The translations under genes and the position numbers were made by a program. DNA of 64,000 nt from a virus (lineage: Duplodnaviria > Heunggongvirae > Uroviricota > Caudoviricetes), in the IMG/VR virus record IMGVR_UViG_2778261087_000003; one strand, 5' to 3'. Of this stretch, positions 19,658 through 55,041 are shown one piece after another (position 1 is the stretch's first letter; every line of letters starts with the position of its first letter). Under the pieces are notes generated by a model. The model was given only the letters and a program-made list of their open reading frames with translations. It was not told where the DNA came from and did not search any database.

Positions 19658-20752
19658 TCACGAGAAACTCTTTTCTGATGTCAGCCAACAGTGCTCGTGC
19701 ATATCTCTTGGTGGTTTTTCGACAAATGCCTCTTCAGCAATATCCCGCCAGGGGATTTGTTTAGCCCATTCAGCTATAGCGTTATGGTTTGCCGAGAATA
19801 ACGGTATTGTATAGGCCTTCAGCCAGTCTAATGTGCTGGAGTTGTGTTTTTGAGCGTGATGTTTCGCATGGTGTTTGGCGATCACGATCGTAGGCACTAC
19901 CCATTTACTACCGTCAGTCATTGTGAAGTGCATATTACGGGGAACAGATGACTTTTCCATCAACTCCCGAATCCCGGGAAATTTCCCCAAGATCAATCGG
20001 CGATATTCATCGCTATTGCGCCCACCAAACTCTTTGGCTTTGAATTCAAGATATGCTTCAGAAACGAGAGGTGAATCCTCTGTGTTTAGAGTTATCGCCG
20101 TGAAAAAACCAGCAGGATTGTTTTTACTATGGGCCAACCGGTGATGCGAATCATAAAAGTACCCTTTCTCGCGTTCCGATGGTTTCGACAGCAACAGCAG
20201 GCGCGAGTCATAATTGGTTAAATTGCCTGTTATCACTGCATGAGCGCGATCGCTGATTTCCGCCGAGTTAATAACGATGAAAAGATCGTGCGGTCCAGTA
20301 AAACCAGCCAGAGATACTTCGTTATTCAGACAATAGGTTATATAGACGCATCCCCATGTTTCACTGGTATGCACCAACCCTTTGTCAGGGTGCATTCTGA
20401 AATGATTGCCAAGAAAAGGGTGTCTTTGGGTAACTCGCTCCCAATAACGGAACATATAGTCAATTATTGTTTTTCGACTATCGTTAATCGCAGGAGAAAC
20501 AACCACTGTACGGGAACACGAATACAGTATTGTTTGCAGGATGCTAATCACTGCCACAATAGAGGTTTCCCCAATACCATGTGGTGTGGTGGCAGTGACT
20601 TTGGCTCCGGTGTTCTTTATCGCGTTAATAATTTTTGCTTGATGAGGTGTTAACTCAATATCAAGCAACTCTTTCGCTGCCAGTTCCCAATTGTCTTTAT
20701 ACTGTTCTATCAGTGCTAACCAGGCAGGTTCATTCTGTATACGATTAGTCAC
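19658..20752 (-). CDS. terminase large subunit (PacB) N-terminal-domain paralogue with degenerate Walker motifs
   Basis: Aligns by eye to the PacB ATPase domain (SKPSEREKGYFYDSHHRLA vs [18 protein letters not shown]; AGFFTAITLNTEDSPLV vs [17 protein letters not shown]); Walker A is HGIGETS not HGTGKS, Walker B INSAE not IDEAS; no nuclease domain. Confidence 0.7.
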   Translation of the reverse strand: MTNRIQNEPAWLALIEQYKDNWELAAKELLDIELTPHQAKIINAIKNTGAKVTATTPHGIGETSIVAVISILQTILYSCSRTVVVSPAINDSRKTIIDYMFRYWERVTQRHPFLGNHFRMHPDKGLVHTSETWGCVYITYCLNNEVSLAGFTGPHDLFIVINSAEISDRAHAVITGNLTNYDSRLLLLSKPSEREKGYFYDSHHRLAHSKNNPAGFFTAITLNTEDSPLVSEAYLEFKAKEFGGRNSDEYRRLILGKFPGIRELMEKSSVPRNMHFTMTDGSKWVVPTIVIAKHHAKHHAQKHNSSTLDWLKAYTIPLFSANHNAIAEWAKQIPWRDIAEEAFVEKPPRDMHEHCWLTSEKSFS

Positions 20753-22962: not shown

Positions 22963-22982
22963 AACAAGTGATTTGCATTATC
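22963..22982 (+). promoter_or_regulatory. candidate late promoter (aacaagtga box plus -10-like) upstream of lyz
   Basis: Shared ACAAGTGA box; see findings. Confidence 0.3.
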
Positions 22983-23071
22983 CTGTGTCTTCTAAAGGGA
23001 TCGAGTCAGTCGGTATTGGCTGTGAATGGGTGTTTGTCCTGGAGCGTAAAAAATTCGCTTATGAGGTCTTT

Positions 23072-23920: not shown

Positions 23921-26651
<2,731 letters not shown>

Positions 26652-26685
26652 TTAATTAGAATAATTCGCATCGTGTTTTAACGGA

Positions 26686-26705
26686 ATTTAACACTAGTCA
26701 CTTGT
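26686..26705 (-). promoter_or_regulatory. candidate late promoter upstream of prt (aacaagtgactagtgttaaat on the minus strand)
   Basis: Strongly resembles the motif at 61749-61770 (aacaaatgactagcggtagaat). Confidence 0.35.
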
Positions 26706-26717
26706 TAAGGATTACCA

Positions 26718-34204: not shown

Positions 34205-34208
34205 GAAC

Positions 34209-34237
34209 TCTCCGGCCTAGGGAGATTAGGCCGGAGA
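34209..34237. terminator. 10-bp-stem hairpin between convergent lxc and the SIR2-like gene
   Basis: tctccggcct-agggagatt-aggccggaga; AT-rich flanks. Confidence 0.4.
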
Positions 34238-34245
34238 TAAATATA

Positions 34246-35550
34246 CTATATAAACTTAGATATAATATCGTGAATCTGTTGTAGCGGGATTTCTTCCATC
34301 TTACTCTTAATAAGAGAGCGGTTAGATGCTGTCAGTGAAGGCCATTTTGTTTTCCAGGCTAGATATGCTCGCCATGAGTAGCCTGTTTCGTAAGGTTTAT
34401 TCATATAAGTCATTGAGTGTTCAACCGCATGTATGTATTTTTTCTCAAAGTTGGTTCCTTTTACTTCAAATAAACTACCGAAATAAATAAGCCATTTTGC
34501 CAGGTGTTCATACTGCTCCCATGCGCCAGACTCTTTAGTAAGATCTATTTTTTTATCTATTATATCACAAAAAACATTTAATACCTTTTCATCATTCCAG
34601 CTATATCCAGATGATGAAATGGAGGAAATGATATGATAAAAAGAATCCTCTAACTTCAAGAACTCTATTTTATACTCTCTTCCGTTTTTTATTACCGATT
34701 TGATTGAGTGCCTCAATTTGTCTTTTATTTTTTTTGCTTCTGGAATTTTCTTGTTAAGTTTTCTAAAGAAATCAGACACCTCTGTTTTATCTATAACCCT
34801 AATCCCAAAGCAGGAAAAATAGTAATCTTTAATAGGTTGCAATAGTTTCCCTCGGGAAATAAGGAAAATATTGGAGGACATTACGTTGTCCCGTGAAAAT
34901 ACCTTATATTCATTTATAATCGCCTTGAGGTTCGCGTCACTTAGAGAATAGCCAAGAATAACAATAGTGTTTTCATGTAGAACTGTGCTTAGTTTATTTG
35001 AAAAGTAAGAATTACCATTTATAAATCTGAAATAATCCTCGCTAGTAACAACCATATCTGATGGGGAGTCTATAGAGCCGTGAACATGGTAGACTTTAAC
35101 CTCACAATTATATTTTGGAATTGGCAGGCCGGGGGTGATTGTACACGTTCGATTCTCTCCAGCCAGTTTTTCTGCTAACTTGTCATAATTTGTCGTAATT
35201 ACTTTAAATGTGTTTTCTTTGAAAAAGTCTTGAATATATTCAATTGATGGATCAAGTTCGATTGAGGCTATGATTTTCTCAATCTCCTGGTAAATATTTT
35301 TCCCCGAAAGTATAAATTTTAGTGCAATAACCTGAGCTGCCTCTTCAAGGCTAAGGTCTTTTGCTTTTCCATCAGGAAATAATTCCTCTTTGAGTGAGTC
35401 ACCATCCTTCAATAAACCGCACAGTTGCTCCAATAAAGATTGCCAACTTGGGGCTTTATCATCAGAAACAGCCTTTGAAAATCCAGTGCCTGTAAGAAAG
35501 CACAGCCTATGTGTAGCTGCTGCATAGGCAATTTCTATATACTCGCTCAT
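34246..35550 (-). CDS. SIR2-like protein (SIR2_2 family), candidate NAD-dependent anti-phage defence protein
   Basis: 434 aa; N-terminal CFLTGTGFSKAV, TTNYD (N121/D123) and VHGS (H157) motifs typical of defence-type SIR2 domains; markedly AT-rich gene; GGAG SD 7 nt upstream of ATG. Confidence 0.75.
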   Translation of the reverse strand: MSEYIEIAYAAATHRLCFLTGTGFSKAVSDDKAPSWQSLLEQLCGLLKDGDSLKEELFPDGKAKDLSLEEAAQVIALKFILSGKNIYQEIEKIIASIELDPSIEYIQDFFKENTFKVITTNYDKLAEKLAGENRTCTITPGLPIPKYNCEVKVYHVHGSIDSPSDMVVTSEDYFRFINGNSYFSNKLSTVLHENTIVILGYSLSDANLKAIINEYKVFSRDNVMSSNIFLISRGKLLQPIKDYYFSCFGIRVIDKTEVSDFFRKLNKKIPEAKKIKDKLRHSIKSVIKNGREYKIEFLKLEDSFYHIISSISSSGYSWNDEKVLNVFCDIIDKKIDLTKESGAWEQYEHLAKWLIYFGSLFEVKGTNFEKKYIHAVEHSMTYMNKPYETGYSWRAYLAWKTKWPSLTASNRSLIKSKMEEIPLQQIHDIISKFI

Positions 35551-35606
35551 TACTTACTCCATTTACTTATAGTTCTACGGAGAAGTATACCCTAATGCAT
35601 TGACGT

Positions 35607-36248
35607 TTATAGATAATTTCCTTTTCCTGTTAATACTCCCTTAGGCACCTGTTTTTGTGCCAGCGTTTGGGTTCCGCGAATTATGTTAATCAGAGGGCTT
35701 AGTAACGATGGTTCCTGGCGTGCCTCAACTTCTCCAGCCATTGCCCTGATGTAGTCTGCGCTGGCAACGTTGTTGTATTCCGTCGCAAAGCAACATAGTA
35801 ACGTCAGAACATGCTCTGTCGTTATTTCGCTCCAGTTGATGTTGAAAAATTCATCGCCTTTTTTGTCGTGTTCGGAATCGAAGATGCTTTGGTGGAGGAT
35901 GTATTTGCCGGATTCTTTGCGCGGTAACTTGATCGCTTTCTGGCGTTCCAGCTCCTTGTAAATCTGCATTGCCTCAATTAGTACCGGCCTGCCGTTCATG
36001 AAGGGATCGCGCAACCTTACACGCTGGCCAACTCGTCCAGTAATAAAGCTGTTTTCCTCTTCCACCAGCACGATAAAACCCTTTTCCTCTTTTTCTCGCA
36101 ATTCGCGCAGCAGCTGGAGTTCCATATCGCGGCGGCGTTCAGGGTAGCTGGTCCGCTCAGCCATTATCAGCTCGTTATTGATCCATGCAGCAGTCATTGA
36201 CGCCGGTTTGCCGACGCTCATCGAAACAACGCATATTTTCTTATCCAT
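35607..36248 (-). CDS. mat: Mat-like protein (particle maturation)
   Basis: Start taken at internal ATG (MDKKICVV...) with G-rich SD; the longer ORF reaches 36359; synteny next to ref. Confidence 0.5.
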   Translation of the reverse strand: MDKKICVVSMSVGKPASMTAAWINNELIMAERTSYPERRRDMELQLLRELREKEEKGFIVLVEEENSFITGRVGQRVRLRDPFMNGRPVLIEAMQIYKELERQKAIKLPRKESGKYILHQSIFDSEHDKKGDEFFNINWSEITTEHVLTLLCCFATEYNNVASADYIRAMAGEVEARQEPSLLSPLINIIRGTQTLAQKQVPKGVLTGKGNYL

Positions 36249-36437
36249 AGCGCCCCCTACAAAAAAGAAAAGCCACCAGCGGCGGCTTAGCAATACAACT
36301 GAAGGTAGCGCCCGGTACTCAGACTGTGCCGTCCATGGAATATTTGAAAAGGGATCCATCCGTACCGGGCGTGTGATGATTCTGACTGAAGTAACTTGTC
36401 AGTTGTCAATCATTTATCATTAAAAATAATATATTTA

Positions 36438-43346: not shown

Positions 43347-43431
43347 TTATGCTTCCTTTCGTAAAAACTCTTTTTGACGCGAGGGTAACGAAAGTCACAT
43401 GTCAAAAGGCCCGGAACGGGCAAGCAATCAA

Positions 43432-43884
43432 TCAGATACGTGCGGATGTGGCATTACCGTAATGACGGTGCTGACGGGCCACCTTATTGAAAAGTTGACG
43501 CGCCATTACCCAAGGCTGGTGCTCCCGGCGTTCCTTTTCGTCCTGCGTCATATAGAGTTCGTTCTGGAGTTTTTCATCAAACCGGCGCGGAGCGCGGCTA
43601 CGGCGAAAGAATTCAGGATTCAGAGAGTGGATCTGAAATCTACGTGGGCGTGTACTGTCATCAATCAAAACAGACGAATACTTAGACACAGCGATAGCCT
43701 TTAAGCGCAGATAAACATCGCGCTTATCGACATCCAGATGCGGGTATTCCTTTTCAAGAATTGCTGCGAGTTCTTTCGCTGATAGAAGAGATTTAGTGCG
43801 GATCATGTAATCCGCAATCTCGTACGATGTTATTCGTGAGTGATTTATTTCCATGAAGTGGCGTCCCTGCCAGTTAAGTAACAT
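43432..43884 (-). CDS. lpa: Lpa, late promoter activator
   Basis: 150-aa ORF downstream of a C1 operator; synteny lpa-pacA-pacB. Confidence 0.8.
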   Translation of the reverse strand: MLLNWQGRHFMEINHSRITSYEIADYMIRTKSLLSAKELAAILEKEYPHLDVDKRDVYLRLKAIAVSKYSSVLIDDSTRPRRFQIHSLNPEFFRRSRAPRRFDEKLQNELYMTQDEKERREHQPWVMARQLFNKVARQHRHYGNATSARI

Positions 43885-43972: not shown

Positions 43973-45016
43973 TTATCTAACGCTCGACGAGTGACTTGTG
44001 ATAGCGCCGACTCCAAGCGCGTAATCAAAGAACAATCGTTGATGCATCGCCAGCCTACCGTGCGTCTTCTCCCAATTATCGCGGTCACGCTCAATATCAC
44101 GCTGGCATGACTGGCACAGAGGAATTGCGTAAATGTCATGCGCGCATAATCGACTATGACGAACGATATAAGGCGTAATGTGAGCGCCAGCTCCCGCCGC
44201 TCCACACCCACAGCATGGACGGGAAGCAACAAAGTCCATGTACTCAGGTAATTTTAGCGATTGCAGTTTTGGTATTTTGAAATGCGCCATGCCAGGGTCG
44301 GAGTCAACATCCACAGGGCATACTTTTGCACGCATCGGCGCGGCGCGTTCTTCCATCATCTGAACATATGCTGTAGCGCGATCGTCATACGGGCGAATAT
44401 CCGCCTCTTTCAGAGGTCCGCTATCCTGCGTTGCGGCTTTCATCTTATTTATTGATATACGGCAAACTTCTTCCGGCATCAGGTGCATCATGTTGCGCAT
44501 GAAAGCCCACCAGCACAGTTCCTGAATACTTAAATCATGGCCATCTGAAAGCCCCATTTCCTGACGGGCGACATCCAGTATCCAGTTAACGCGATTATTA
44601 TGCAGCGTTTCTTTCAGCTCATTAAAACCACGCATCCGGTAATGGTTATCGTGATGCCAGCACAACAACACCGCGCTATTGTCTCGTTCTGCGTGGACAA
44701 TATGGTTGTCACACCAGCTACGATCTGCGGCCTGGCATTGCCCCTCTTTCCTGCGCAACCACGCCACCAGCGCGTCAATTCCACCAATACGGCGAAACAG
44801 TTCATCGCTGTTAAAAAACGGCTGCAACGCCTCATTTGTTGCCATAGTTTGCTCGGAAACAACGAGGCCGTCGTCCATGTGCTCGATTAACTCACGCGGC
44901 ACCGGCTCCATAATAAATTTACGGCCAGCCTCCACCAGCTTTCTGACTTCCTGATCCACTTTGAATGTGGCGACGCCAAGCTCTTTTTGTACAAAGGGAG
45001 TAATTACGGCTTTCAC
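43973..45016 (-). CDS. hypothetical Cys-rich protein (P1 pdcB position)
   Basis: 347-aa ORF between doc and lpa. Confidence 0.5.
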
Positions 45017-46329: not shown

Positions 46330-46414
46330 TACATTGAAAAGGCATAGTTTGTGAAAGCGGGGTTTGTAGGCGCGCCACGCTGGGGGCTAATCACATTTCT
46401 CCCCCATCTTGCCG

Positions 46415-46666
46415 TTATTTTTTTGGTGCATCCTCGTTCTGATACACCGGATCGCTCCCTTTTGGCAACTGGAGGCTTAACTGCCGGTAGTGCCGTAGCC
46501 GTTCCATGAAATAGGCGCGCAGGTTTTCCGGTTGCTCACGGGCCACCTGCTCTGCAATCACAGGTATATTCAGCCGTTCTTTGTAAGCAACGCCGCTGGC
46601 GGCAAGGTCTACGTTCACCTTGTCTCGCTCTTCCTGGCTTTTAGCTGCTATATTTCGATCTGACAC
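46415..46666 (-). CDS. hot: Hot, homologue of DNA polymerase III theta subunit
   Basis: 83 aa; [33 protein letters not shown] closely resembles E. coli HolE. Confidence 0.9.
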
Positions 46667-46698
46667 AAGAAACCTCCAGGAGTTAGTGGATCAGGCAC

Positions 46699-47049
46699 AT
46701 GCACAATAACGTTCTCAATGTTAGCCGTTCAATTCAGACAATCAGAGACTGCACCAGTGTGGTGGCATCAATCCCATTGCGGAACAGCATAGACGAACTG
46801 CAAATTCGTGTATTGAATCCGAATCAGGCTAATAAGCAATTGCGCTTTATTTTGACGCTGAAAAGTGAAACAGAGGGGATAAAGCACAGCGTAAAAGTGT
46901 TTTCTGAGGCCATTCTGCTTAATGGGAAGCTCCGGCATCTGGTAAGGCCAGAACGTCAATATCCTGACGTCCTGGCGCGTGAAAAAGACCTTCTTTCTGA
47001 AGTTCAGGATAGGGTGATCGATTTCGTCAAATGCTATCCCCTGCATTGA
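46699..47049 (+). CDS. hypothetical protein (divergent from hot)
   Basis: 116-aa ORF, weak SD; only plus-strand ORF in this block. Confidence 0.3.
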   Translation: MHNNVLNVSRSIQTIRDCTSVVASIPLRNSIDELQIRVLNPNQANKQLRFILTLKSETEGIKHSVKVFSEAILLNGKLRHLVRPERQYPDVLAREKDLLSEVQDRVIDFVKCYPLH

Positions 47050-47318
47050 GGGCAGGTGTTCCCTTCCGCAAAGTAGGGAAAATTGCTATCAAGTTCATCA
47101 CACCATCTGCGATGGTCGTAGCACCAAAACGCCTCCCACGGTGCACGGAAATACTTCATCCACCAGGACACTCGATCAGGTATATCTGCTGGTGGCAGTT
47201 CTTCTGGCAATAATTTGCCTGATAATTCCCTTTCCGCCCGCGACAGCATTTTTTTGAGGCTCGCGTTCTCTTTTTCAAGCTCATCTACGCGCACCTGTAA
47301 TTCAGCTTTCGTTGGCAT
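47034..47318 (-). CDS. hypothetical coiled-coil protein
   Basis: Start taken at MPTKAELQVRVDELEK; longer ORF to 47399 overlaps the upstream gene. Confidence 0.4.
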   Translation of the reverse strand: MPTKAELQVRVDELEKENASLKKMLSRAERELSGKLLPEELPPADIPDRVSWWMKYFRAPWEAFWCYDHRRWCDELDSNFPYFAEGNTCPQCRG

Positions 47319-48240
47319 GGTCCACCTCATGCTTTTCAGCCACCAGCGGCAATAAAGCCCTGGCCATCTTATGAACCAATAGTGCATCAATAATGCCAAG
47401 CGTATGCCCCGGCTTAATGTTTAATGCCGCCTCAAGGTGACACCTTTCCAGGTCACTTTTCTCGGCTTGTTTATGATGATCTGGTGTAATAACGTCGCCC
47501 AAAACACGGCTAATTCTTTCTCGTAATTGCTGGGTGCCAGCACACTTGATCGCTGTATCGTGGAGACGGTTAACCAGTTCGCGATAAACATGCGGCTTAA
47601 TGCGGATACGTTCACCGGTGACGCCCTTTCCTGGCGCTGGCACCGAACTATCCGGAATATCCGGATAGTTGCCAGCCTCGTAAGCTACCCACAGCCAGTG
47701 CATGAATGTTTCAGTGGACACACAACCACAGTCCACATCGATTTTCCCGCGTTGCTGTTCCAGCCATTGCCCAAAATCCAACCTGTAAGTCTTACTTTCA
47801 AGTTCATCACCATTGAACTCGACTTTCTGCGACGCTATGAGAGCTGATTCGTATTGTTCGCGAGTGACAACTGACTGGTATTCATCGCTATCAAGGCCAC
47901 CAATTGGAAGCTCAATCTCACAACAAAAATTGCGCCCAAAGAAAGTGTCTTTTTTGTGGTCTGAGCCAAAAGCAAAAGTCGCGCATGGTGCCATTAAATT
48001 GACACTGGGTAGGTAACAATAACTCATTCCATCAGGCCACCCGCCGCACTTAGGCAGCTCCTTCACTAACAAGTCGATAAGCTTCATTTTTTTATCATCT
48101 TTGCAAGCCGCCAAAGCCATTTGGGCAAGTGCCAATACTTCATCTGCCGTATATCCAGCACCGTGACCATACATTTCGATACGGGAAATAATCTCTGATA
48201 TACGCTCTTCAGTGATTCTGGTCATTTCTTTTTGCGCCAT
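47302..48240 (-). CDS. hypothetical protein (312 aa)
   Basis: Long ORF, coupled to neighbours. Confidence 0.55.
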   Translation of the reverse strand: MAQKEMTRITEERISEIISRIEMYGHGAGYTADEVLALAQMALAACKDDKKMKLIDLLVKELPKCGGWPDGMSYCYLPSVNLMAPCATFAFGSDHKKDTFFGRNFCCEIELPIGGLDSDEYQSVVTREQYESALIASQKVEFNGDELESKTYRLDFGQWLEQQRGKIDVDCGCVSTETFMHWLWVAYEAGNYPDIPDSSVPAPGKGVTGERIRIKPHVYRELVNRLHDTAIKCAGTQQLRERISRVLGDVITPDHHKQAEKSDLERCHLEAALNIKPGHTLGIIDALLVHKMARALLPLVAEKHEVDHANES

Positions 48241-48596
48241 TTCTTTTCACATTCCTTAGTCCATTTTTCAATGTTCATTTTGGCAATATCGGTCATTCCA
48301 TCACCTAAGAAATACTTTCTCCGGTATGTCTTGCACTTAAACCACACTACAACAGCCACCAGCCAGAAAATAAAAGGCCATACAGCAATACCAACGACTG
48401 CCGCGATAAAGCTCAATATCCATAAATGAAGCTCTCCAACTTCTGTTTCCGGCAATATTCTTAAAGAATTAAACAGTAGGCTGAACGCATGGTCGTATGC
48501 ATTGGCAGTATAAGACATGCAATCCATATAATTAAAGTCATAGCCTGCGGCTGCCGCCCATAATGGGCGGTCAAGAAAATGTTTTAGTGTCATCAT
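48222..48596 (-). CDS. hypothetical membrane protein (124 aa)
   Basis: Hydrophobic helices (ILSFIAAVVGIAVWPFIFWLVAVVVWF). Confidence 0.45.
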   Translation of the reverse strand: MMTLKHFLDRPLWAAAAGYDFNYMDCMSYTANAYDHAFSLLFNSLRILPETEVGELHLWILSFIAAVVGIAVWPFIFWLVAVVVWFKCKTYRRKYFLGDGMTDIAKMNIEKWTKECEKKWRKKK

Positions 48597-48602
48597 ATAA
48601 AT

Positions 48603-48896
48603 TTAAGGTTCAGACCAGTTATCTTCAATAGCAATGCTTAATCTTTGTAGCCATTCTGCTAATTTCAGCATTGCTTCTCTTTCGCTTAAACCACGAGGAA
48701 AATCATCAAGCGAAATTGTTGGCTTGAAGCCCCCGTAATTATCCATTTCAACTGTCAGATTTTGCTCCAGCACGGTATTCCTTACGCGGCTATTGTGCCG
48801 AAGCAAATATACTGAACGTGATTTATTGGTTTTGTGGTCGAACGTATATTCGGTAAGTATCATCTGACTTCCGCCATGATTATTACCGCGCCACAT
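48603..48896 (-). CDS. hypothetical protein (97 aa)
   Basis: ORF in a tight minus-strand array. Confidence 0.45.
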   Translation of the reverse strand: MWRGNNHGGSQMILTEYTFDHKTNKSRSVYLLRHNSRVRNTVLEQNLTVEMDNYGGFKPTISLDDFPRGLSEREAMLKLAEWLQRLSIAIEDNWSEP

Positions 48897-48919
48897 AATT
48901 ACTCCGTGTTAATTGAAAT

Positions 48920-49201
48920 TTAGCTATTAATCTTCACTTTTATCGCGAACACCTTTACCGGTTTATCACCGAAGTGTGGATGTGTGATTGTTTTTATTTC
49001 ATATCCGTTATACGGGACGTCAATTCTGCGACTGAAGTCTTCGCGCTTCGGATATCCCTTTGTGATAATCAGGCGGTAATACTTACGGTTAACGAGGCGC
49101 TTATTCCAGTAGTCATTACACAGGCGATACTCTTCCGTTTTCTCCCCGCGAATCATGGCATCGAAGTATTCACCTTTAACGGCAAGTTGCAGGTTAGCCA
49201 T
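48920..49201 (-). CDS. hypothetical protein, possibly ASCH/PUA-like
   Basis: Start at MANLQ with GGAGGTGA SD, overlapping upstream stop (TAATG). Confidence 0.45.
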   Translation of the reverse strand: MANLQLAVKGEYFDAMIRGEKTEEYRLCNDYWNKRLVNRKYYRLIITKGYPKREDFSRRIDVPYNGYEIKTITHPHFGDKPVKVFAIKVKINS

Positions 49202-49461
49202 TACCTCACCTCCAGTCTCCATACCGCCTGACCAATCCGGCTGGCATAGGTATCTTTGGATACTGTTCCGTCTTTAGCCATCTCCATAAGAATTTTGCGC
49301 AAATCTGCCGAACGCCATTCTTCATCAGGAAATTCCTTCTCCATTGCCAACCGCAGACTCCAGGTTGCCATCCTGAATGGATATTCCCCGCCGAGAACTT
49401 TCTCTTGCAGGGCTGCACGGGAACGCATCACCTGCAAAATCTTCTCTTTCACATCCATCAT
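49201..49461 (-). CDS. hypothetical protein
   Basis: Start at MMDVKE with AGGAGGTGA SD right after the upstream stop. Confidence 0.4.
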   Translation of the reverse strand: MMDVKEKILQVMRSRAALQEKVLGGEYPFRMATWSLRLAMEKEFPDEEWRSADLRKILMEMAKDGTVSKDTYASRIGQAVWRLEVR

Positions 49462-50018
49462 TTCACCTCCTGCGGCGGTTCCGGTAGCGGCATCCAGTGT
49501 GATGGTATCCACGACGCACCAGGTATTACCCACCCATCATTAGCGTCAGGATGCCCCGGGATGTAAGTCGCCCATTTCATTCGCCAGTCACCTTTCCTGT
49601 CAAACTCCCTGGCAACAAGAACGGCTGTTTTGGTATCCGGCATTCGCTCACTACAGCTTATCCAGCCATCCGGAGTTACCGGAGAGTTGCCATTTACATC
49701 GAAGTTTGGCTCTGCGTCCTGAACCAGGAGGATGTAACCATTCTTGGCTGTATCAAGTTCTAACGCCTCGGTGACGGTGCCGAAATAGCGATTACCTAAA
49801 TCAGCATCACAAGTGCTTACATCAATGGAAACTTCCATGCCTTCGATTAATTCTGGTAAGTTGTAAGTTTGGTTTACAGGCTCTGCTTCCAGCGATGCCA
49901 GAGCAATTCGTGCCAGTTCTTCCGCTTCTTCTGCTGGCAGTACAACGTTGCTACCCGGTCCGTATGTTTCGCGCCACTGCTTGATTGTCAGCAGTCGCTC
50001 TTTGGTAATAGTGATCAT
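49458..50018 (-). CDS. hypothetical protein, paralogue of 50893-51255
   Basis: Shares the N-terminal I-T-K-E-R and ELARIALASLEAEPV motifs. Confidence 0.55.
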   Translation of the reverse strand: MITITKERLLTIKQWRETYGPGSNVVLPAEEAEELARIALASLEAEPVNQTYNLPELIEGMEVSIDVSTCDADLGNRYFGTVTEALELDTAKNGYILLVQDAEPNFDVNGNSPVTPDGWISCSERMPDTKTAVLVAREFDRKGDWRMKWATYIPGHPDANDGWVIPGASWIPSHWMPLPEPPQEVK

Positions 50019-50530
50019 GCCGCGTTTCCTTCTTTCTTATTAACAATTACACCGTCATATATTTCATTAAGGTGCCCTCTCAACTCCATGCGCCTTAATG
50101 CAGATAACATGTAATCGCATTCAACCTGCTTATTTCCAGTAAATGGCTTATCGTCAGGATTACCCCAACAGCAATTACCCTTGGGCCACCCATGTACTTT
50201 CCGTACTCTTCCGTTAACAACGTGAAGTAATCCCCAGCCAGGTGGTAAATCCTCAACTGAAATAATTCCCGGCTCACTAATAAAGAATCGCCAGTCGCCC
50301 ATTCCAAGAGATGGATTTTTACGAAAACGCTTTTTTCTATCTGCCAACAAGTCAGCACGAGAACACTTCGCCTCTATCAGGCATGATGCTGAATTTCTGA
50401 ATCCCATAGCATCTGGCTGTTCTCCGGTACTGGTTACAGCTATAAAGCGGTCATGAAAACAAACCTTGAACCCGTTGCGCTTAAGGAACTTATACGCAAT
50501 CTGACAGAGTTCGCGGTGTGTTAACGCCAT
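50015..50530 (-). CDS. hypothetical protein with possible PD-(D/E)xK nuclease motif
   Basis: Start at MALTHREL with AAGGAGA SD; D...EAK motif. Confidence 0.5.
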   Translation of the reverse strand: MALTHRELCQIAYKFLKRNGFKVCFHDRFIAVTSTGEQPDAMGFRNSASCLIEAKCSRADLLADRKKRFRKNPSLGMGDWRFFISEPGIISVEDLPPGWGLLHVVNGRVRKVHGWPKGNCCWGNPDDKPFTGNKQVECDYMLSALRRMELRGHLNEIYDGVIVNKKEGNAA

Positions 50531-50892
50531 ATCACTCTCCTTTAGTGCGCAAGTGGTTTTTCCAGCGGTTTTGCGCCGCGCTGGGCTTTTTGCAAAAACC
50601 ACAATCCATCATCCCGTAATATTTCATCAACCCCATCCGTCGGTTGCTGAGTCTCACCCACTGCCAGACGCCAGGAGCGTTTCTACGAACTAACAGAATC
50701 TTTGCTTTACGGTTTTTCATCGCTTTGCTCTCCTGCGTCTCTTTGCTGCTCGTCGTGCCGCTGCAATACCGGTATGGCGGCGCTTTGGTGCCGGGATGAT
50801 GTTGTCAGCCATCAGGACATGTGGCTTTGCAATTAGCGCAGAAGCCCAAAAACGAGTCGGGTACGGTAACAAGCCGAAAAATGCCACACGCA

Positions 50893-51255
50893 TTACTCAT
50901 CTCCCTTACCCTGAAGCATGGCAGCGCGGCAGGCGTTCCAGCCATCAACATAATCAAACGTATTGCTATCGTCTGGCTCGATTTCATCCGGCACTACCGG
51001 CTCTGGTTGGATAGTGACGTTGGCAAAGGCAGCACGCAAACCGGCCTTAATTTCCTCTACTTCATCAGCGCCTAGCGATGAATCTGACAATGCGTGATGG
51101 AATGCGTAAGCCATGTCGTCGTTTACTGCAACCGGTTCGGCTTCCAGTGATGCCAGCGCAATTCGTGCCAGTTCCATTTGTTCGCCACGGGTAAGCCCGT
51201 TATCAAGCGGATTTTTAATGAATAATTCGATACGTTCTTTGGTAATAGTGGTCAT
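50893..51255 (-). CDS. hypothetical protein, paralogue of 49458-50018
   Basis: MTTITKERIE...ELARIALASLEAEPV. Confidence 0.5.
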   Translation of the reverse strand: MTTITKERIELFIKNPLDNGLTRGEQMELARIALASLEAEPVAVNDDMAYAFHHALSDSSLGADEVEEIKAGLRAAFANVTIQPEPVVPDEIEPDDSNTFDYVDGWNACRAAMLQGKGDE

Positions 51256-51461
51256 TTGTTAATCCTCAAAACTTTATGCCCGGGCGCAAAAGCACGTGTT
51301 TTGTCTTTACTTATTCGCCACCCGTCTTTACGGGCCTCTTTTGCACAACCAGACCATGACGTACCGATATACTCACCGAAGTCTGGCACTGGATATACAC
51401 CTTCCGTACACTGGCGGCAGTCACAATAGAGATGCATGGTGTAACTTGCAGCGATAGCCAT
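51252..51461 (-). CDS. hypothetical small Cys-rich protein
   Basis: Start at MAIAASYT with the same AAGGAGAGTGAT SD-containing repeat as the gene at 50530. Confidence 0.4.
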   Translation of the reverse strand: MAIAASYTMHLYCDCRQCTEGVYPVPDFGEYIGTSWSGCAKEARKDGWRISKDKTRAFAPGHKVLRINK

Positions 51462-51462
51462 A

Positions 51463-51948
51463 TCACTCTCCTTTGATGCGAATGCCTGTTGCAATGCTGT
51501 TTATGATGCTGTCAGTGCATGGGGTAGAAAGCTGGGCATCTCCAGCAATTTTCATGACCTCAACATCTGCATATCGAATACCGAGGTGTATCAGACCGGC
51601 TATACCTGACTTAAGCCGAGCATTTTCCATAAACAGATCCTTTGCCCGCTGTTTTTCTGCCTCAAGCTCAACGCGCAACTTCCCTACCGTTAGCGCAATA
51701 TCCTCGTTCTCCTGGTCGCGGGATTTGATGTATTGCTGGTTTCTTTCCCGTTCATCCAGTAGTGCCAGCACGGTTTCTGGTCCGGCCAGAAATTTGAAGG
51801 CGTTGAGCGCATCAATATCCACACCGTAATCTTTAAGTTCCTGTTCGCTTATCAGATCATCATCAACTGGCAACATTAACAGGCGTTCCATTGCCGGAAT
51901 TGCACGTTCTGCCGCCTCACGCAGTGCCTGATAGTTAATTTTGGTCAT
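51463..51948 (-). CDS. hypothetical protein (161 aa)
   Basis: ORF in coupled array. Confidence 0.5.
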   Translation of the reverse strand: MTKINYQALREAAERAIPAMERLLMLPVDDDLISEQELKDYGVDIDALNAFKFLAGPETVLALLDERERNQQYIKSRDQENEDIALTVGKLRVELEAEKQRAKDLFMENARLKSGIAGLIHLGIRYADVEVMKIAGDAQLSTPCTDSIINSIATGIRIKGE

Positions 51949-51949
51949 A

Positions 51950-52249
51950 TCACATCACCCTGAAGCCGTTGCATTTACGTAAAAAATCGCAGATATAGCC
52001 CTTCATTTTTTCATGCCAATCTCGATCATTCCCATTGCACCACCCATCAGGTGGAGTCCAGTTTTCTATCAGAGCAGCCATTTTCTTTGCTTTCGCCGGA
52101 GTAGCTGTTGCGGTATCGCAGTAATGACGAGTGTCAACCAACGTATCCATACCATCGATATCAAGTACGCAAAACCATGTGTGATTCGGCATTTCAACAG
52201 ATGGTATTTGTTGCCCACGTCGACGTTTATCAATAAGACATACAGTCAC
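51950..52249 (-). CDS. hypothetical protein (99 aa)
   Basis: ORF in coupled array. Confidence 0.45.
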   Translation of the reverse strand: MTVCLIDKRRRGQQIPSVEMPNHTWFCVLDIDGMDTLVDTRHYCDTATATPAKAKKMAALIENWTPPDGWCNGNDRDWHEKMKGYICDFLRKCNGFRVM

Positions 52250-52980
52250 TGGTTGCCTCCTTTGCGAAGCTGGGCAGCAAAGTCAACTAACCACTCAGTC
52301 ATTTCAACCTTCCCTACCAGGTCTGAACCAGGGTGCATACAGCAATCACTCTGCGCCGCTTTGAAATCCTTATACTCATATTCTTGGGCCACCAGATTTT
52401 TTGCAGCTTCTATAGCAGCATCCACCCCCTGCGCCCGGACTTCAGCCAAGAAAGCGTCGGTGGCTGACATATTTCCTGTTGCCTTCATGGCCTTCAAAAT
52501 AACCAGAACGCCATCTCGCCCAACCACCTCAGCGATAACCTCGGTGTTGTCGCCAACAACATCGCAGAATGCCTGAAATGCCTTACGAGCCAGCTCATTC
52601 TCCACTGCCAGCGCCGTGCGATTACCCTCCAGCTCTGCAATGCGCTGTTTTGCGGCATCCAGTTCAATCGACAATTTTTCCAACTGCTCTTGATGCTTCT
52701 TGTATTCCTGATATGCGTGCCAAGACTGACCTTTGCGCACACTATCAGTGATATCAGTAATCTGTTCTGGTGTTAGCGTGGTCAGTGGCTGTGATGGGAA
52801 AATAAGCACTTTCCCGGAATCCCAATCAAAACCAGCGTGAATTGACTGAACCTCAACTGAAGGTGTTGAACCAATGCTGCCAGGCGAATGAACAACGATT
52901 GTTACATCCATATCGCGACGATGGCTGTGGTTGTTGGACAAAATACGATTCACCAACTCAGAAAATTTGGAAATTTTCAT
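52246..52980 (-). CDS. hypothetical protein, paralogue of 53264-53974
   Basis: Shared ATDAFLAE(V/I)RA segment. Confidence 0.55.
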   Translation of the reverse strand: MKISKFSELVNRILSNNHSHRRDMDVTIVVHSPGSIGSTPSVEVQSIHAGFDWDSGKVLIFPSQPLTTLTPEQITDITDSVRKGQSWHAYQEYKKHQEQLEKLSIELDAAKQRIAELEGNRTALAVENELARKAFQAFCDVVGDNTEVIAEVVGRDGVLVILKAMKATGNMSATDAFLAEVRAQGVDAAIEAAKNLVAQEYEYKDFKAAQSDCCMHPGSDLVGKVEMTEWLVDFAAQLRKGGNQ

Positions 52981-53300
52981 GCTGATTCCCCTTTCTCTGC
53001 TCTCTCCTGTCGGAACATCACTATCATCAGGTCGCCTTTTGTCGCTATCCTGGCTGTTGTACCTGGTTCAATGCGGCTAAGCTCAAATGCGTCATAGAAC
53101 GCTTCTAATGCCTTCTGGCGTAGTTCCTGTTTGCGCCGTTTTTTCCACTGTTTTAGGAAAATGGAACCCAGCCATCGCCATGTGCGGGACATGATGTAAA
53201 GCCAACCGAGAAGTGCCAGACCGGTATTTAGGAGCGTATCGATCGTTATTGTCGTGTCGATATTCACTGGCTGCTTCCTTTGCGAATCTGTTCCGCCCAT
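52977..53300 (-). CDS. hypothetical membrane-anchored protein
   Basis: Hydrophobic segment LLNTGLALLGWLYIM, basic stretch. Confidence 0.4.
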   Translation of the reverse strand: MGGTDSQRKQPVNIDTTITIDTLLNTGLALLGWLYIMSRTWRWLGSIFLKQWKKRRKQELRQKALEAFYDAFELSRIEPGTTARIATKGDLMIVMFRQERAEKGESA

Positions 53301-53974
53301 TCTTCAAGGGATTTCTCCGCATATTCACCAGACAGGCCATCAATCGGATGCGCTTCATTAGCCAACTCTTCTTTCGCTGACAAAATCATGCGTGTAACGT
53401 CGAAAACTTCACGCAAAGACTTATTGATAAATCCGTGATTGAACGCAGCAGCAAGACGGCTGGCGGTATAGTTAATCCCCTCGTTGCGTGCTTCCGCACG
53501 AATTTCAGCCAGAAAAGCATCGGTAGCTGGAGTTTCGCTGTGGTGCAGGGCATCGTTGATAATCATTGCAGCAACTCCGGCCTGCCCTGCATCCGTGACC
53601 GACACATGATCAAGAGTTACAGCCATTGCGAGTTTCAGCCCGGCGTTCTCTGCCACCAGAGCCGCGAGCTTAGTCTCAAGCGGTGCTATTCGGCACATAG
53701 CATCAATATTTGTGTCCTCCAGGCGCTTAATTTCGCCCAGGAGTGCCAGCGCAACTTTTGGTGGGATAGCCGCGATATAACGGGCATTAGCACCAGCATT
53801 CCTTTGCCCATCAATGCCAGGCCAGTCAATAAAGTATCCGCAATGCCTACCCTCAGACGTGCGCGCAGGATAAATGCCGTTATGACCCGGCAAAATATAT
53901 GCTACCCATTCATCTTGCGTTGCCTGTTCCGCCGCCTCGCGCAGTTCTTGATAGTCAATTGTCATTCTCGCCAT
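53264..53974 (-). CDS. hypothetical protein, paralogue of 52246-52980
   Basis: Shared ATDAFLAEIRA segment. Confidence 0.55.
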   Translation of the reverse strand: MARMTIDYQELREAAEQATQDEWVAYILPGHNGIYPARTSEGRHCGYFIDWPGIDGQRNAGANARYIAAIPPKVALALLGEIKRLEDTNIDAMCRIAPLETKLAALVAENAGLKLAMAVTLDHVSVTDAGQAGVAAMIINDALHHSETPATDAFLAEIRAEARNEGINYTASRLAAAFNHGFINKSLREVFDVTRMILSAKEELANEAHPIDGLSGEYAEKSLEEWAEQIRKGSSQ

Positions 53975-54606
53975 CCTTCACAGTTGTAATCACGACAGCC
54001 TTCAAAATCATATGGGCTGTACTGCCAGGTGATTTTTCCGCAATGCGGACAATTCCAACGCACCTTCCCGCTTCGCGACTTCTTTCTTCTGTTCTGCTTT
54101 TTCAACCAGTCAGGCATGATCAAACCTGCGCCCTGAACCATTGTTCTGCGGTTAAAGTTATTGATATTGAACGTCCGGCGCTTTGCTGCATCAGCAATGG
54201 AAAATGGCAACCAAACTATTCCTGGTTCGTTTTTGTTGGCGACGCTAAAGATGGTCGCTTTACTGAAGTCATCTGTTGGCAATCCACCGTGTTGAAGCCA
54301 GTAAACATCGTTGCCGTTCCAGCTACCTTTTTTGTAGGCCACATACGCAGTGCAATCTGACTCAATCAGGCTTTCTGTAGGGATGTACTGGCAATCAACG
54401 TGCCACACAGCCATTGCATCCACACTATCGGCACAAACAGGCTGATCGATATCTCGCCCACAATTCCAGGCTTTTTGGGCTTCTTCCAGCGTGTAAACAT
54501 GAGCGCGATCGATATCAGAACTGTAACCATTGCCGTTATGGCAATGGAATGAGGCGTTATTACCCACAGTTTCACGCAAGCACATCATGTAAAAACGGTT
54601 ACTCAC
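53962..54606 (-). CDS. hypothetical Cys-rich protein (214 aa)
   Basis: Multiple Cys pairs including CPHCGK. Confidence 0.5.
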   Translation of the reverse strand: MSNRFYMMCLRETVGNNASFHCHNGNGYSSDIDRAHVYTLEEAQKAWNCGRDIDQPVCADSVDAMAVWHVDCQYIPTESLIESDCTAYVAYKKGSWNGNDVYWLQHGGLPTDDFSKATIFSVANKNEPGIVWLPFSIADAAKRRTFNINNFNRRTMVQGAGLIMPDWLKKQNRRKKSRSGKVRWNCPHCGKITWQYSPYDFEGCRDYNCEGWRE

Positions 54607-54814
54607 TGGATGCCTCCCAGCAAATTTGTCTTATATAAGAACTGTTAACGCGCTTTACTTTCCCGTCGAACTCCAGTTTCTTTAGACGACGCAAAACGTA
54701 TGCCGTTTTGAGTGTGCGATATTTATCCCTAAGCCAGTTGGTCACGACGTAAGTCATACAGCGCCCGTGTTCTTCCAACACCCGAACTATTTCTTCGTCG
54801 GTTGGCTTGCTCAT
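54599..54814 (-). CDS. hypothetical small protein, possible winged-helix
   Basis: 71-aa ORF, coupled. Confidence 0.4.
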   Translation of the reverse strand: MSKPTDEEIVRVLEEHGRCMTYVVTNWLRDKYRTLKTAYVLRRLKKLEFDGKVKRVNSSYIRQICWEASSE

Positions 54815-55032
54815 TTTGTCGCTCCTTCAGCTTTCTCTACTTTCGCTGCCATGATTTCCAGCTTTTGTGCTGCCGATGCCGCTAACCTGTGAAATTCTTC
54901 ATCTGTTTCAACTGGAATTGGTACAAACCTGACACCAATTTGAGCAAGGCTATGCGCCATTTCGAGACTTGCTCTTAACTCTGCTGGGGATGCTTTATTC
55001 AGGCCGACTTCCTCACAAATAACTGATTGCAT
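54811..55032 (-). CDS. hypothetical small protein
   Basis: 73-aa ORF, coupled. Confidence 0.4.
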   Translation of the reverse strand: MQSVICEEVGLNKASPAELRASLEMAHSLAQIGVRFVPIPVETDEEFHRLAASAAQKLEIMAAKVEKAEGATK

Positions 55033-55041
55033 ACGCTCGCC

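What the first reader, a model, noticed from the sequence alone, without database searches (positions are those of the whole stretch)
26686..26705. Recurrent ACAAGTGA(CTAG) box plus -10 element: probable Lpa-dependent late promoters
Closely related sequences occur upstream of prt (minus strand, aacaagtgactagtgttaaat) and of the plus-strand gene at 61800 (aacaaatgactagcggtagaat). Shorter versions lie upstream of lyz (22963, aacaagtga) and R (7564, acaagtta), with a weaker one before lydA (12618). None has a recognisable -35, which fits activator-dependent late promoters. I do not recall the published Lpa box precisely, so the assignment is an inference.
Basis: inference. Interest (0 to 1): 0.4.

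Follow-up and report, generated by a model that had tools for sequence, protein, structure and literature searches.

The report
Known phage P1 late promoter LPpro
The flagged sequence is the already described late promoter in front of the portal gene of a phage P1 relative, one of a known set of promoters switched on late in infection by the phage activator Lpa, so it is an ordinary, correctly guessed feature.

Summary
The window is a phage P1-like genome, about 98% identical to P1, P7, RCS47 and SJ46.

**The finding.** The site at 26685-26706 (- strand) is AAC-AAGTGACTA-GTGT-TAAATT. It is base-for-base identical to "late promoter LPpro" in the P1 GenBank record AF234172.1.

- 61749 is LP26, 22963 is LPlyz and 7564 is LPs. 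All three are correct.
- The "weak" site at 12618 is misplaced. The annotated LPdar lies 15 bp downstream, at 12634-12655.
- LPmat, LPpac and LPpmgL were missed.

**Chance.** The bare 8-mer is not enriched (55 matches against 49 expected). The box plus a -10 hexamer at fixed spacing is enriched: 7 against 0.8 and 12 against 1.1 expected, with 0 of 100 shuffles reaching either count.

**Supporting evidence.**
- The window encodes Lpa (PF25716, E = 3e-57).
- Cronobacter phage JK004 (Lpa 67% identical) keeps the motif before the matching late operons.
- Phage D6 (Lpa 31% identical) carries a different motif.

**Mechanism.** As published: Lpa acts at the box centred near -22, with host SspA and sigma-70 RNA polymerase.

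**Side observation.** An unannotated, equally good match lies inside gene 7 at 63454-63475. It is unlikely by chance, and its function is untested.

The parts
26685..26706 (-). LPpro, the finding. Read 5'->3' on the - strand it is AAC (26706-26704), box AAGTGACTA (26703-26695), spacer GTGT (26694-26691) and -10 TAAATT (26690-26685). The inferred start site is near 26678.
   Evidence: Identical to annotated P1 LPpro. PWM score 25.5 bits. Best -35 match 2 of 6. Conserved in JK004 as CACAAGTGACCAGTGTTAAATT.
24933..26642 (-). prt (portal) gene, first gene of the prt-pro operon served by LPpro. The TTG start at 26642 lies 42 nt downstream of the -10.
   Evidence: ORF list. P1 annotation of Prt, 569 aa. 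tblastn 99% to P1 Prt. Distance.
7563..7584 (+). LPs (Ps), GACAAGTTACTTCTCTTACAAT, 30 nt upstream of gene R.
   Evidence: 58 of 59 nt match to annotated P1 LPs. 26.4 bits.
12634..12655 (+). LPdar, GAGAAGTTACTTTGCATACCAT, 28 nt upstream of lydA.
   Evidence: 59 of 59 nt match to annotated P1 LPdar. 21.2 bits.
22963..22984 (+). LPlyz, AACAAGTGATTTGCATTATCCT, upstream of lyz.
   Evidence: 59 of 59 nt match to annotated P1 LPlyz. 22.6 bits.
36379..36400 (-). LPmat, GACAAGTTACTTCAGTCAGAAT, 19 nt upstream of mat.
   Evidence: 58 of 59 nt match to annotated P1 LPmat; the only change is the central base of the box. 23.1 bits.
43382..43403 (-). LPpac, GACATGTGACTTTCGTTACCCT, 35 nt upstream of pacA and directly after lpa.
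   Evidence: 59 of 59 nt match to annotated P1 LPpac. The ortholog is retained in three diverged Lpa-encoding contigs and in JK004.
61749..61770 (+). LP26, AACAAATGACTAGCGGTAGAAT, 29 nt upstream of gene 26.
   Evidence: 58 of 59 nt match to annotated P1 LP26. 25.9 bits.
61742..61763 (-). LPpmgL, a divergent late promoter that shares the palindromic box (61752-61760) with LP26.
   Evidence: 58 of 59 nt match to annotated P1 LPpmgL.
43432..43884 (-). lpa, the late promoter activator gene (150 aa).
   Evidence: Pfam PF25716 BPP1_LPA, E = 3.1e-57. PHROG 1704 'Lpa-like transcriptional activator', E = 7.6e-85. 99% identical to NCBI 'Late promoter-activating protein'. The AlphaFold core, residues 17-90, has a winged-helix topology.
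63454..63475 (+). Candidate additional late promoter, AACAAGTGACTGGTGATAACCT, about 46 bp inside gene 7. Not annotated in P1 and not proven.
   Evidence: 21.7 bits. Zero mismatches to ACAAGTGACT-N5-TANNNT. Chance expectation 0.002 per window. No regulatory feature in the P1 record at this place. Only partly conserved in JK004 and Pantoea.

Best explanation
The sequence at 26685-26706 (- strand) is the late promoter LPpro of a P1-like phage. It has three defining properties:

- a 9-bp imperfect inverted repeat (AAGTGACTA; family consensus AAGTnACTT, usually preceded by AC) centred about 21-22 bp upstream of the start site;
- a 4-bp spacer followed by a -10 hexamer (TAAATT);
- no -35 element.

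In the prophage and early in infection it is silent or weak, because sigma-70 RNA polymerase lacks a -35 contact. Once the C1-repressed lpa gene (43432-43884) is expressed, Lpa acts at the box together with the host RNA-polymerase-associated protein SspA. Transcription then starts about 7 nt downstream of the -10 (near 26678) and runs leftward through prt (portal) and pro (head processing).

The same device drives the other late operons in the window: R-S-U tail fibres, lydA-lydB-darA, lyz, mat, pacAB and 26-25-7-24-6-5, with pmgL divergent from gene 26.

Shown here: sequence identity with the annotated promoter, non-random recurrence, correct position and orientation, absence of a -35, presence of lpa, and conservation in a diverged relative.

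Taken from the literature or inferred, not tested here: Lpa and SspA dependence, the start site, and direct Lpa-DNA contact.
For: - **Identity.** The 22-nt core is identical, and 57 of 59 nt of context match, to the feature 'late promoter LPpro / -22 region / -10' of AF234172.1.
- **Family architecture.** All 11 annotated P1 late promoters share the box, a 4-bp spacer and a -10 (LPhot has a longer spacer).
- **In-window copies.** Eight annotated orthologs are present in the window. Seven of them score 21-26 bits; LPpmgL is recognised only by homology.
- **Enrichment.** 7 against 0.79 expected and 12 against 1.08 expected, with 0 of 100 shuffles reaching either count.
- **Position.** Every in-window ortholog with a measured distance lies in an intergenic gap, with its -10 19-88 nt upstream of a co-oriented late gene, and with at most 2 of 6 matches to a -35. 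No sigma-70 promoter is called on these hexamers.
- **Activator.** lpa is present.
- **Independent genome.** In Cronobacter phage JK004 (Prt 82%, Lpa 67% identical), the P1-derived PWM gives 9 hits of 14 bits or more against 0.48 expected. They lie upstream of the genes at the positions of 23, R, mat, 26, pacA, prt, lyz and pmgC. The LPpro ortholog is one of them.
- **Diverged contigs.** LPpac is retained between lpa and pacA in three further diverged contigs.
- **Specificity.** Phage D6 (Lpa 31% identical) lacks enrichment of the P1 box and has a different motif at the same places, as expected if the box is read by Lpa.
[quoted passage not shown] SspA is required for P1 late transcription (PMC7515715; PMC8201110).
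- **Protein fold.** The predicted Lpa core has a winged-helix fold.
Against: - Nothing in the sequence contradicts the explanation.
- No transcript or start-site data for this phage, or for LPpro specifically, could be examined.
- The P1 record gives no experimental qualifier for LPpro, unlike LPs, LPlyz, LPdar and LP26, whose notes cite earlier published promoters. LPpro itself may therefore rest on sequence prediction.
- The primary papers (Lehnherr 1991/1992, Hansen 2003, Lobocka 2004) are not held in the library. The mechanism is therefore cited second-hand.
- One secondary source calls Lpa 'an RNA polymerase binding factor' rather than a DNA-binding protein (PMC8198154).
- The fold matches are weak (E = 0.01-0.1).
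- LPpro carries TG at -15/-14, so some Lpa-independent activity is possible.
Confidence: 0.93

Rival explanations
1. The site works mainly as an Lpa-independent 'extended -10' sigma-70 promoter (TGnTAAATT), and its resemblance to the Lpa box is secondary.
For: The spacer GTGT places T and G at -15/-14, directly before TAAATT. TAAATT keeps the critical A-11 and T-7. JK004 keeps the same GTGT-TAAATT.
Against: - The box is conserved as well as the -10 in JK004.
- The other late promoters lack TG at -15/-14 but share the box.
- The P1 record annotates the site as a late promoter.
- prt and pro are head genes with no need for early expression (established phage biology).
Confidence: 0.05
2. The recurrence is a chance repetition of a short A/T-rich word and has no function.
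For: The 8-mer with up to 1 mismatch is not enriched: 55 against 49 expected. The 51239 hit overlaps the ribosome-binding site and ATG of an ORF.
Against: - The composite motif is enriched 9- to 11-fold, with 0 of 100 shuffles reaching the observed count.
- The expectation for a hit of 20 bits or more is 0.009 per window, against 8 observed.
- The sites lie at orthologous positions in JK004.
Confidence: 0.01
3. The palindromic box is an operator for a repressor or another DNA-binding protein that controls the overlapping, oppositely oriented predicted darB promoter, rather than an activator site for prt.
For: The predicted sigma-70 promoter PdarB lies 20-70 bp away on the other strand. The tool calls it as CTGCCA-18-AATAAT at 26636-26665, and P1 annotates it. 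Its transcript would cross the box. The box is a partial palindrome, as operators are.
Against: - The same box occurs at seven or more other late-operon fronts that have no facing promoter.
- Always being 4 bp from a co-oriented -10 is an activator/promoter geometry.
- P1 C1 operators have a different, 17-bp asymmetric sequence and are annotated elsewhere.
Confidence: 0.01

Closest known systems
Phage P1 late promoter LPpro (GenBank AF234172.1 / NC_005856, nt 17251-17269)
   Same: The ortholog. The 22-nt core AACAAGTGACTAGTGTTAAATT is identical. It sits in the same place between darB and prt, in the same orientation, with the same downstream operon.
   Different: Two substitutions downstream of the -10, within the 59-nt context. 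The host element is a P1 variant, 98% identical, with several replaced segments.
Phage P1 late promoter family (LPs/Ps, LPlyz, LPdar, LP26, LPpmgL, LPmat, LPpac, LPsit, LP23, LPhot), activated by Lpa (gp10) with E. coli SspA
   Same: A 9-bp inverted repeat AAGTnACTT centred near -22, a 4-bp spacer, a -10 of the form TAnnnT, no -35, and a position in front of late operons (PMC10695390; PMC3152322).
   Different: - LPpro's box ends in A rather than T, as do LP26 and LPsit, so 3 of 4 palindromic pairs form.
- It has TG at -15/-14.
- In this window LPhot is absent, and LPsit and LP23 lie outside the window.
Late promoters of Cronobacter phage JK004 and related plasmid prophages (Lpa 67-77% identical)
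   Same: The same box, spacing and -10 at orthologous positions. The LPpro ortholog is CACAAGTGACCAGTGTTAAATT.
   Different: The box is more degenerate on its left half, for example AAAGCACTT before lydA and GTGTGACTT before pacA. These records carry no promoter annotation.
Late-gene upstream motif of phage D6 (Lpa homolog 31% identical)
   Same: A short conserved box a few bp upstream of a -10-like hexamer, with no -35, in front of the genes annotated as similar to P1 prt, R, lydA, 23, 7, pmgB, ddrB and mat, and of a lysin gene.
   Different: The box sequence is different: AAATCACAnnCT, with 8 exact copies against about 0.17 expected from base counts. It is not palindromic. The P1-type box is not enriched in D6.
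Other activator-dependent phage late promoters (Mu C protein; P2/P4 Ogr/Delta; T4 gp55/gp33)
   Same: Late genes are under positive control at promoters lacking a usable -35 (PMC3152322; PMC10695390).
   Different: Mu C binds at -30 to -55 (PMC3152322). T4 replaces sigma. The P1 box lies unusually close, abutting the -10 region, and needs host SspA. No sequence relationship was tested or is claimed.

Membership tests
P1-type Lpa-dependent late promoter | A 9-bp inverted repeat matching AAGTnACTT, centred about 21-22 bp upstream of the start site | tested here: met
   The box AAGTGACTA at 26703-26695 matches 7 of the 8 specified positions of the consensus and forms 3 of 4 palindromic pairs. It is identical to the annotated '-22 region of LPpro'.
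P1-type Lpa-dependent late promoter | A -10 hexamer (TAnnnT) exactly 4 bp downstream of the box | tested here: met
   Spacer GTGT, then TAAATT, which matches TATAAT at 4 of 6 positions with A-11 and T-7 present. The spacing is the same in 10 of 11 P1 late promoters.
P1-type Lpa-dependent late promoter | No functional -35 hexamer | tested here: met
   The best TTGACA match at 16-18 bp spacing is 2 of 6. The sigma-70 scan finds no promoter using this -10.
P1-type Lpa-dependent late promoter | Located upstream of, and co-oriented with, a late (morphogenesis, lysis or packaging) operon | tested here: met
   The -10 ends 42 nt upstream of the TTG start of prt (portal), which is followed by pro.
P1-type Lpa-dependent late promoter | The genome encodes Lpa | tested here: met
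   43432-43884 (-): PF25716, E = 3.1e-57. 99% identical to the NCBI Late promoter-activating protein.
P1-type Lpa-dependent late promoter | Orthology to an annotated P1 late promoter | tested here: met
   22 of 22 core and 57 of 59 context nt identical to AF234172.1 LPpro.
P1-type Lpa-dependent late promoter | Conservation of the box and -10 in diverged relatives that keep a similar Lpa | tested here: met
   JK004 has CACAAGTGACCAGTGTTAAATT at the same place before prt. The motif is replaced where Lpa is only 31% identical, in D6.
P1-type Lpa-dependent late promoter | Transcription starts 6-8 nt after the -10, only late, and depends on Lpa and host SspA | not testable with these tools
   No transcript data were available for this element. 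The dependence is taken from the literature for the family.
Sigma-70 extended -10 promoter | A TG dinucleotide at -15/-14 directly upstream of a good -10 hexamer | tested here: met
   The sequence is TGT-TAAATT. This is compatible with some basal activity. It does not exclude Lpa control and is not shared by the rest of the family.

The most novel reading that the evidence does not exclude
The Lpa regulon of P1-group phages may be larger and differently defined than annotated, in two ways.

(i) A twelfth, intragenic late promoter may lie about 46 bp inside gene 7 (63454-63475, AACAAGTGACTGGTGATAACCT). It would boost the downstream tail genes 24, 6 and 5.

(ii) The recognised element may be an 11-bp ACAAGTGACTT rather than the annotated 9-bp palindrome. 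A-27 and C-26 are as invariant as the box core in 22 sites from 4 lineages.

The element has been swapped for an unrelated box (AAATCACAnnCT) in the D6 lineage, along with Lpa divergence.
Probability: 0.3. Interest if true: 0.3.

Novelty: already known. Interest (0 to 1): 0.1.

Why it matters
It matters little beyond annotation. It confirms that this P1-like element keeps the classical Lpa/SspA late-transcription circuit intact, with 8 of the 11 P1 late promoters inside the window. It also gives exact coordinates for them.

The practical value is a corrected promoter map for this variant:
- the true LPdar position;
- the loss of LPhot.

It also yields two small testable leads: a possible unannotated late promoter inside gene 7, and a lineage-specific change of the activator's box in phage D6.

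Tried and rejected
Not above chance. Only the composite motif is.
Rejected, because it has no -10 at the right spacing and lies 15 bp upstream of the annotated LPdar.
3. **PWM hit at 51239-51260 (15.9 bits).** Rejected, because AACAAATGACC there is the ribosome-binding site and ATG context of ORF 50893-51255.
4. **PWM hit at 12946-12967 (18.3 bits, before lydB).** Probably not functional, because the box is lost in JK004.
5. **Search for new late promoters in the 8.7-kb non-P1 segment 46340-55071.** Nothing convincing was found, and LPhot is absent upstream of the hot homolog.
6. **The P1 PWM in phage D6.** No enrichment. This led to the different D6 motif.
7. **Test of DNA-level constraint on the gene-7 site.** The viral-contig scan returned only 98-100% identical copies, which are uninformative. 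The genome-contig scan gave one intermediate relative, from Pantoea. The result is inconclusive.
8. **Primary literature.** Lobocka 2004 and Lehnherr 1991 are not held in the library.
9. **Solved structure of Lpa.** None exists in the PDB copy.
10. **Terminator scan at the GC-rich hairpins that abut LPs and LPpac.** Not called by the tool's criteria.
11. **P7 annotation.** It shows no promoter features in the 26-25-7 stretch, so it gave no independent check.

Full report
**What the window is.** The 4 kb around the finding matches phage P1 and its relatives (P7, RCS47, SJ46 and others) at 98% identity over its full length. A whole-window comparison shows it is the reverse complement of P1 from about nt 44,100 down through nt 1, then from 94,800 down to 76,255. 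Several segments are replaced: 1-1752, 9435-11635, 19625-20743, 34205-35612 and 46340-55071.

**Checking the observation.** The other quoted strings are also where stated.

Whether this exceeds chance depends on the definition used:
- The 8-mer ACAAGTGA with one mismatch allowed is not enriched: 55 against 49.2 expected.
- The 15-mer of the finding with up to three mismatches is marginal: 4 against 1.04 expected.
- Box plus fixed spacer plus -10 is clearly non-random. AAGTNACTT-N4-TANNNT with up to 1 mismatch gives 7 hits against 0.79 expected. ACAAGTGACT-N5-TANNNT with up to 2 mismatches gives 12 against 1.08. No shuffle out of 100 reaches either count.

**What it is.** The fully annotated P1 record AF234172.1 carries a feature 'late promoter LPpro' at 17251-17269. 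It is split into a 9-bp '-22 region' and a -10 signal, and it lies between darB and prt. The window's 22-nt core, AAC-AAGTGACTA-GTGT-TAAATT, is identical to it, and 57 of 59 nt of context match.

The record annotates 11 late promoters in all. Aligned, they show the architecture (A/G)AC-AAGTnACTT-N4-TAnnnT. The box is an imperfect 9-bp palindrome. LPhot has a longer spacer.

Mapping the annotated promoters onto the window gives:

| Promoter | Window coordinates | Strand |
|---|---|---|
| LPs | 7563-7584 | + |
| LPdar | 12634-12655 | + |
| LPlyz | 22963-22984 | + |
| LPpro | 26685-26706 | - |
| LPmat | 36379-36400 | - |
| LPpac | 43382-43403 | - |
| LP26 | 61749-61770 | + |
| LPpmgL | 61742-61763 | - |

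LPpmgL shares its box with LP26. LPsit and LP23 lie outside the window. LPhot is absent, because the sequence upstream of the hot homolog has been replaced.

The 'weaker' site at 12618 (AACAAATGACC) is not LPdar. It has GAGAAG where a -10 should be, and it lies 15 bp upstream of the true box, AAGTTACTT at 12637-12645. LPmat, LPpac and LPpmgL were missed.

The '(CTAG)' of the title is peculiar to LPpro and LP26. The consensus there is ACTT.

In 22 non-identical sites from the window, P1, JK004, two other contigs and Pantoea, A-27 is invariant and C-26 is 20 of 22. That is as conserved as the core of the annotated box.

**Anatomy and context.** At every in-window site the best -35 match at 16-18 bp spacing is 2 of 6 or worse. 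The -10 ends 19-88 nt upstream of the start codon of a co-oriented gene, and 42 nt upstream for prt. The simple sigma-70 scan calls no promoter using these hexamers.

The activator gene is present. 43432-43884 (-) encodes a 150-aa protein matching Pfam PF25716 'Late promoter-activating protein' at E = 3.1e-57 and PHROG 1704. It is 99% identical to the NCBI Lpa cluster.

No solved structure of Lpa exists. An AlphaFold model built from 14 homologs is confident (pLDDT about 90) for residues 17-90, with a helix-helix-helix-strand-strand topology. Its best PDB matches are all winged-helix DNA-binding domains: PadR, Fur/PerR N-domains, MarR, BlaI and forkhead. The scores are weak, with E = 0.01-0.1 and probability 0.9-1.0. 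This fits a dimeric reader of a short palindrome, but it is only suggestive.

**Independent evidence from relatives.** Cronobacter phage JK004 has Prt 82% and Lpa 67% identical, and its record carries no promoter annotation.
- A weight matrix built only from P1 sites finds 9 hits of 14 bits or more, against 0.48 expected.
- Eight of them lie in front of the genes at the positions of P1 genes 23, R, mat, 26, pacA, prt, lyz and pmgC.
- The LPpro ortholog there is CACAAGTGACCAGTGTTAAATT, and sequence further downstream diverges.
- Before lydA, JK004 has AAAGCACTT-TCAC-TAACAT. The left half of the box is degenerate, while the right half and the spacing are intact.

Three further contigs encoding Lpa at 67-77% identity keep LPpac between lpa and pacA.

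Phage D6 has an Lpa homolog that is only 31% identical, and it shows no enrichment of the P1 box. The upstream regions of its late genes instead share AAATCACAnnCT followed by a -10-like hexamer. There are 8 exact copies where about 0.17 are expected from base counts. The box therefore changes where Lpa has diverged strongly. That is what is expected if Lpa, or an Lpa-polymerase complex, reads it.

**Mechanism.** From the held papers:
- P1 late genes are transcribed by host RNA polymerase from late promoters that need Lpa (PMC8198154; PMC8201110).
[quoted passage not shown] 2003; also PMC7515715).

lpa itself sits behind a C1-controlled operator and a sigma-70 promoter in P1. The timing logic follows: loss of C1 repression, then Lpa synthesis, then activation of -35-less promoters, then head, tail, lysis and packaging genes.

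For LPpro, the inferred start is near 26678 (-) and the transcript covers prt and pro. These last steps are inferred from the family. They are not shown for this site, and the P1 record gives no experimental note for LPpro.

**Rivals.** Three alternatives were weighed.
- *A purely Lpa-independent extended -10 promoter.* This is conceivable, because TG lies at -15/-14. It does not explain the conserved box.
- *Chance.* This is excluded by the statistics and by JK004.
- *An operator role for the facing predicted darB promoter.* This does not fit the recurrence of the box at the other late-operon fronts, always 4 bp from a co-oriented -10.

**Side observations.**

*Candidate promoter inside gene 7.* The strongest unannotated match is 63454-63475 (+), AACAAGTGACTGGTGATAACCT, at 21.7 bits.
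- It has zero mismatches to the pattern taken from LPpro.
- The chance expectation is 0.002 per window.
- It lies about 46 bp inside gene 7, downstream of genes 26 and 25. The P1 record has no regulatory feature there.
- It is invariant in 79 of 80 P1-clade contigs, but those are about 99% identical overall.
- JK004 reads CACAAATGACCGGTGATACGCT and a Pantoea plasmid reads AACAAAGCACAGAGGATACAAT at this place.
- The third-codon positions that coincide with motif-critical bases -27, -24 and -12 are conserved in all three. The one at -18 is not. The three third-codon positions at non-critical bases all vary.
- This is mildly suggestive of DNA-level constraint, but the sample is tiny.
- In D6, gene 7 is separated from gene 25 by toxin-antitoxin genes and has a D6-type box directly upstream. 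An independent promoter for genes 7-24-6-5 is therefore not implausible.

*Other matches.*
- A weaker match before lydB (12946-12967) is not conserved in JK004.
- A box-like palindrome at 43989-43997, about 70 bp upstream of the lpa promoter start, is conserved in two relatives. It lies inside the pdcB coding end.

**Verdict.** The interpretation, Lpa-dependent late promoters, is correct. The feature is already known and annotated in P1, so interest is low.

Noticed in passing
window 63454-63475 (+): AACAAGTGACTGGTGATAACCT is as good a late-promoter match as the annotated ones (21.7 bits; chance expectation 0.002 per window). It lies about 46 bp inside gene 7 and is not annotated in P1. JK004 and Pantoea keep most invariant positions but lose T-18. 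It may be a twelfth late promoter serving genes 24, 6 and 5.
   Followed up: partly
window 12946-12967 (+): AACGAGTGAATATCGATAGCAT (18.3 bits) lies inside the 3' end of lydA. Its -10 is 42 nt upstream of the lydB ATG at 13010. The box is not conserved in JK004, so it is probably not functional.
   Followed up: partly
window 43986-44007 (box 43989-43997): A box-like palindrome, GAGTGACTT (AAGTCACTC on the lpa strand), abuts the C1 operator and promoter of lpa, roughly 70 bp upstream of the lpa start site. It is conserved in two diverged contigs (L005, L006), but it lies within the last codons of pdcB. Whether Lpa feeds back on its own gene is open.
   Followed up: partly
22 late-promoter sites from the window, P1 (L002/L003), JK004 (L009/L010), L005, L006 and L093: The AC dinucleotide just upstream of the annotated 9-bp '-22 region' is as conserved as the box core (A-27 in 22 of 22 sites, C-26 in 20 of 22). 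The functional element may be the 11-bp ACAAGTGACTT.
   Followed up: partly
phage D6, L007+L008 (e.g. record positions 19215+, 25241-, 27747-, 38135-, 45511-, 67413-, 72120-): D6 (Lpa 31% identical) lacks the P1 box. It has AAATCACAnnCT followed by a -10-like hexamer in front of its late genes (those similar to P1 prt, ddrB, R, pmgB, 7 and mat, and a lysin gene), with 1-mismatch copies before the lydA and gene 23 homologs. There are 8 exact copies against about 0.17 expected. I could not check whether this has been published.
   Followed up: partly
window 46340-55071 and 46640-46820: About 8.7 kb of non-P1 sequence replaces P1 nt 85183-87536. The hot homolog (46415-46666, -) has lost the P1 late promoter LPhot upstream, and no substitute box was found.
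   Followed up: partly
window 26632-26703: LPpro (- strand, start near 26678) and the predicted sigma-70 darB promoter (+ strand, -10 near 26657-26665) face each other, and their footprints overlap. Polymerase at one should exclude the other, so late activation of LPpro might shut off PdarB.
   Followed up: no
window 26691-26694 and 63469-63472: LPpro and the gene-7 candidate both have TG at -15/-14 (the extended -10 configuration), unlike the other late promoters. The same is true of the JK004 LPpro ortholog.
   Followed up: no
window 7544-7562 (+) and 43404-43418 (-): GC-rich hairpins (ccccgtccgcagggcgggg; gcccgttccgggc followed by tttt) directly abut the boxes of LPs and LPpac. The same arrangement is seen before LPpac in JK004, L004, L005 and L006. 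They look like insulating terminators of the upstream operons, but they did not meet the terminator scan's T-run criterion.
   Followed up: partly
window 36389 and 7575; 61742-61747: The differences between this element and P1 inside late promoters fall at non-conserved positions: the central base of the LPmat box (G to T) and the LPs spacer (A to C). The exception is the LPpmgL -10, which changes from AATATT to ATTATT.
   Followed up: no
window 43432-43884 (-), Lpa protein: The N-terminal 78 residues of Lpa also match the PHROG 'anti-repressor Ant' family (E = 1e-6). Database homologs include fusions of a KilAC/ANT domain with the Lpa domain (P0032, P0039, P0042). The predicted core is a winged helix.
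   Followed up: no
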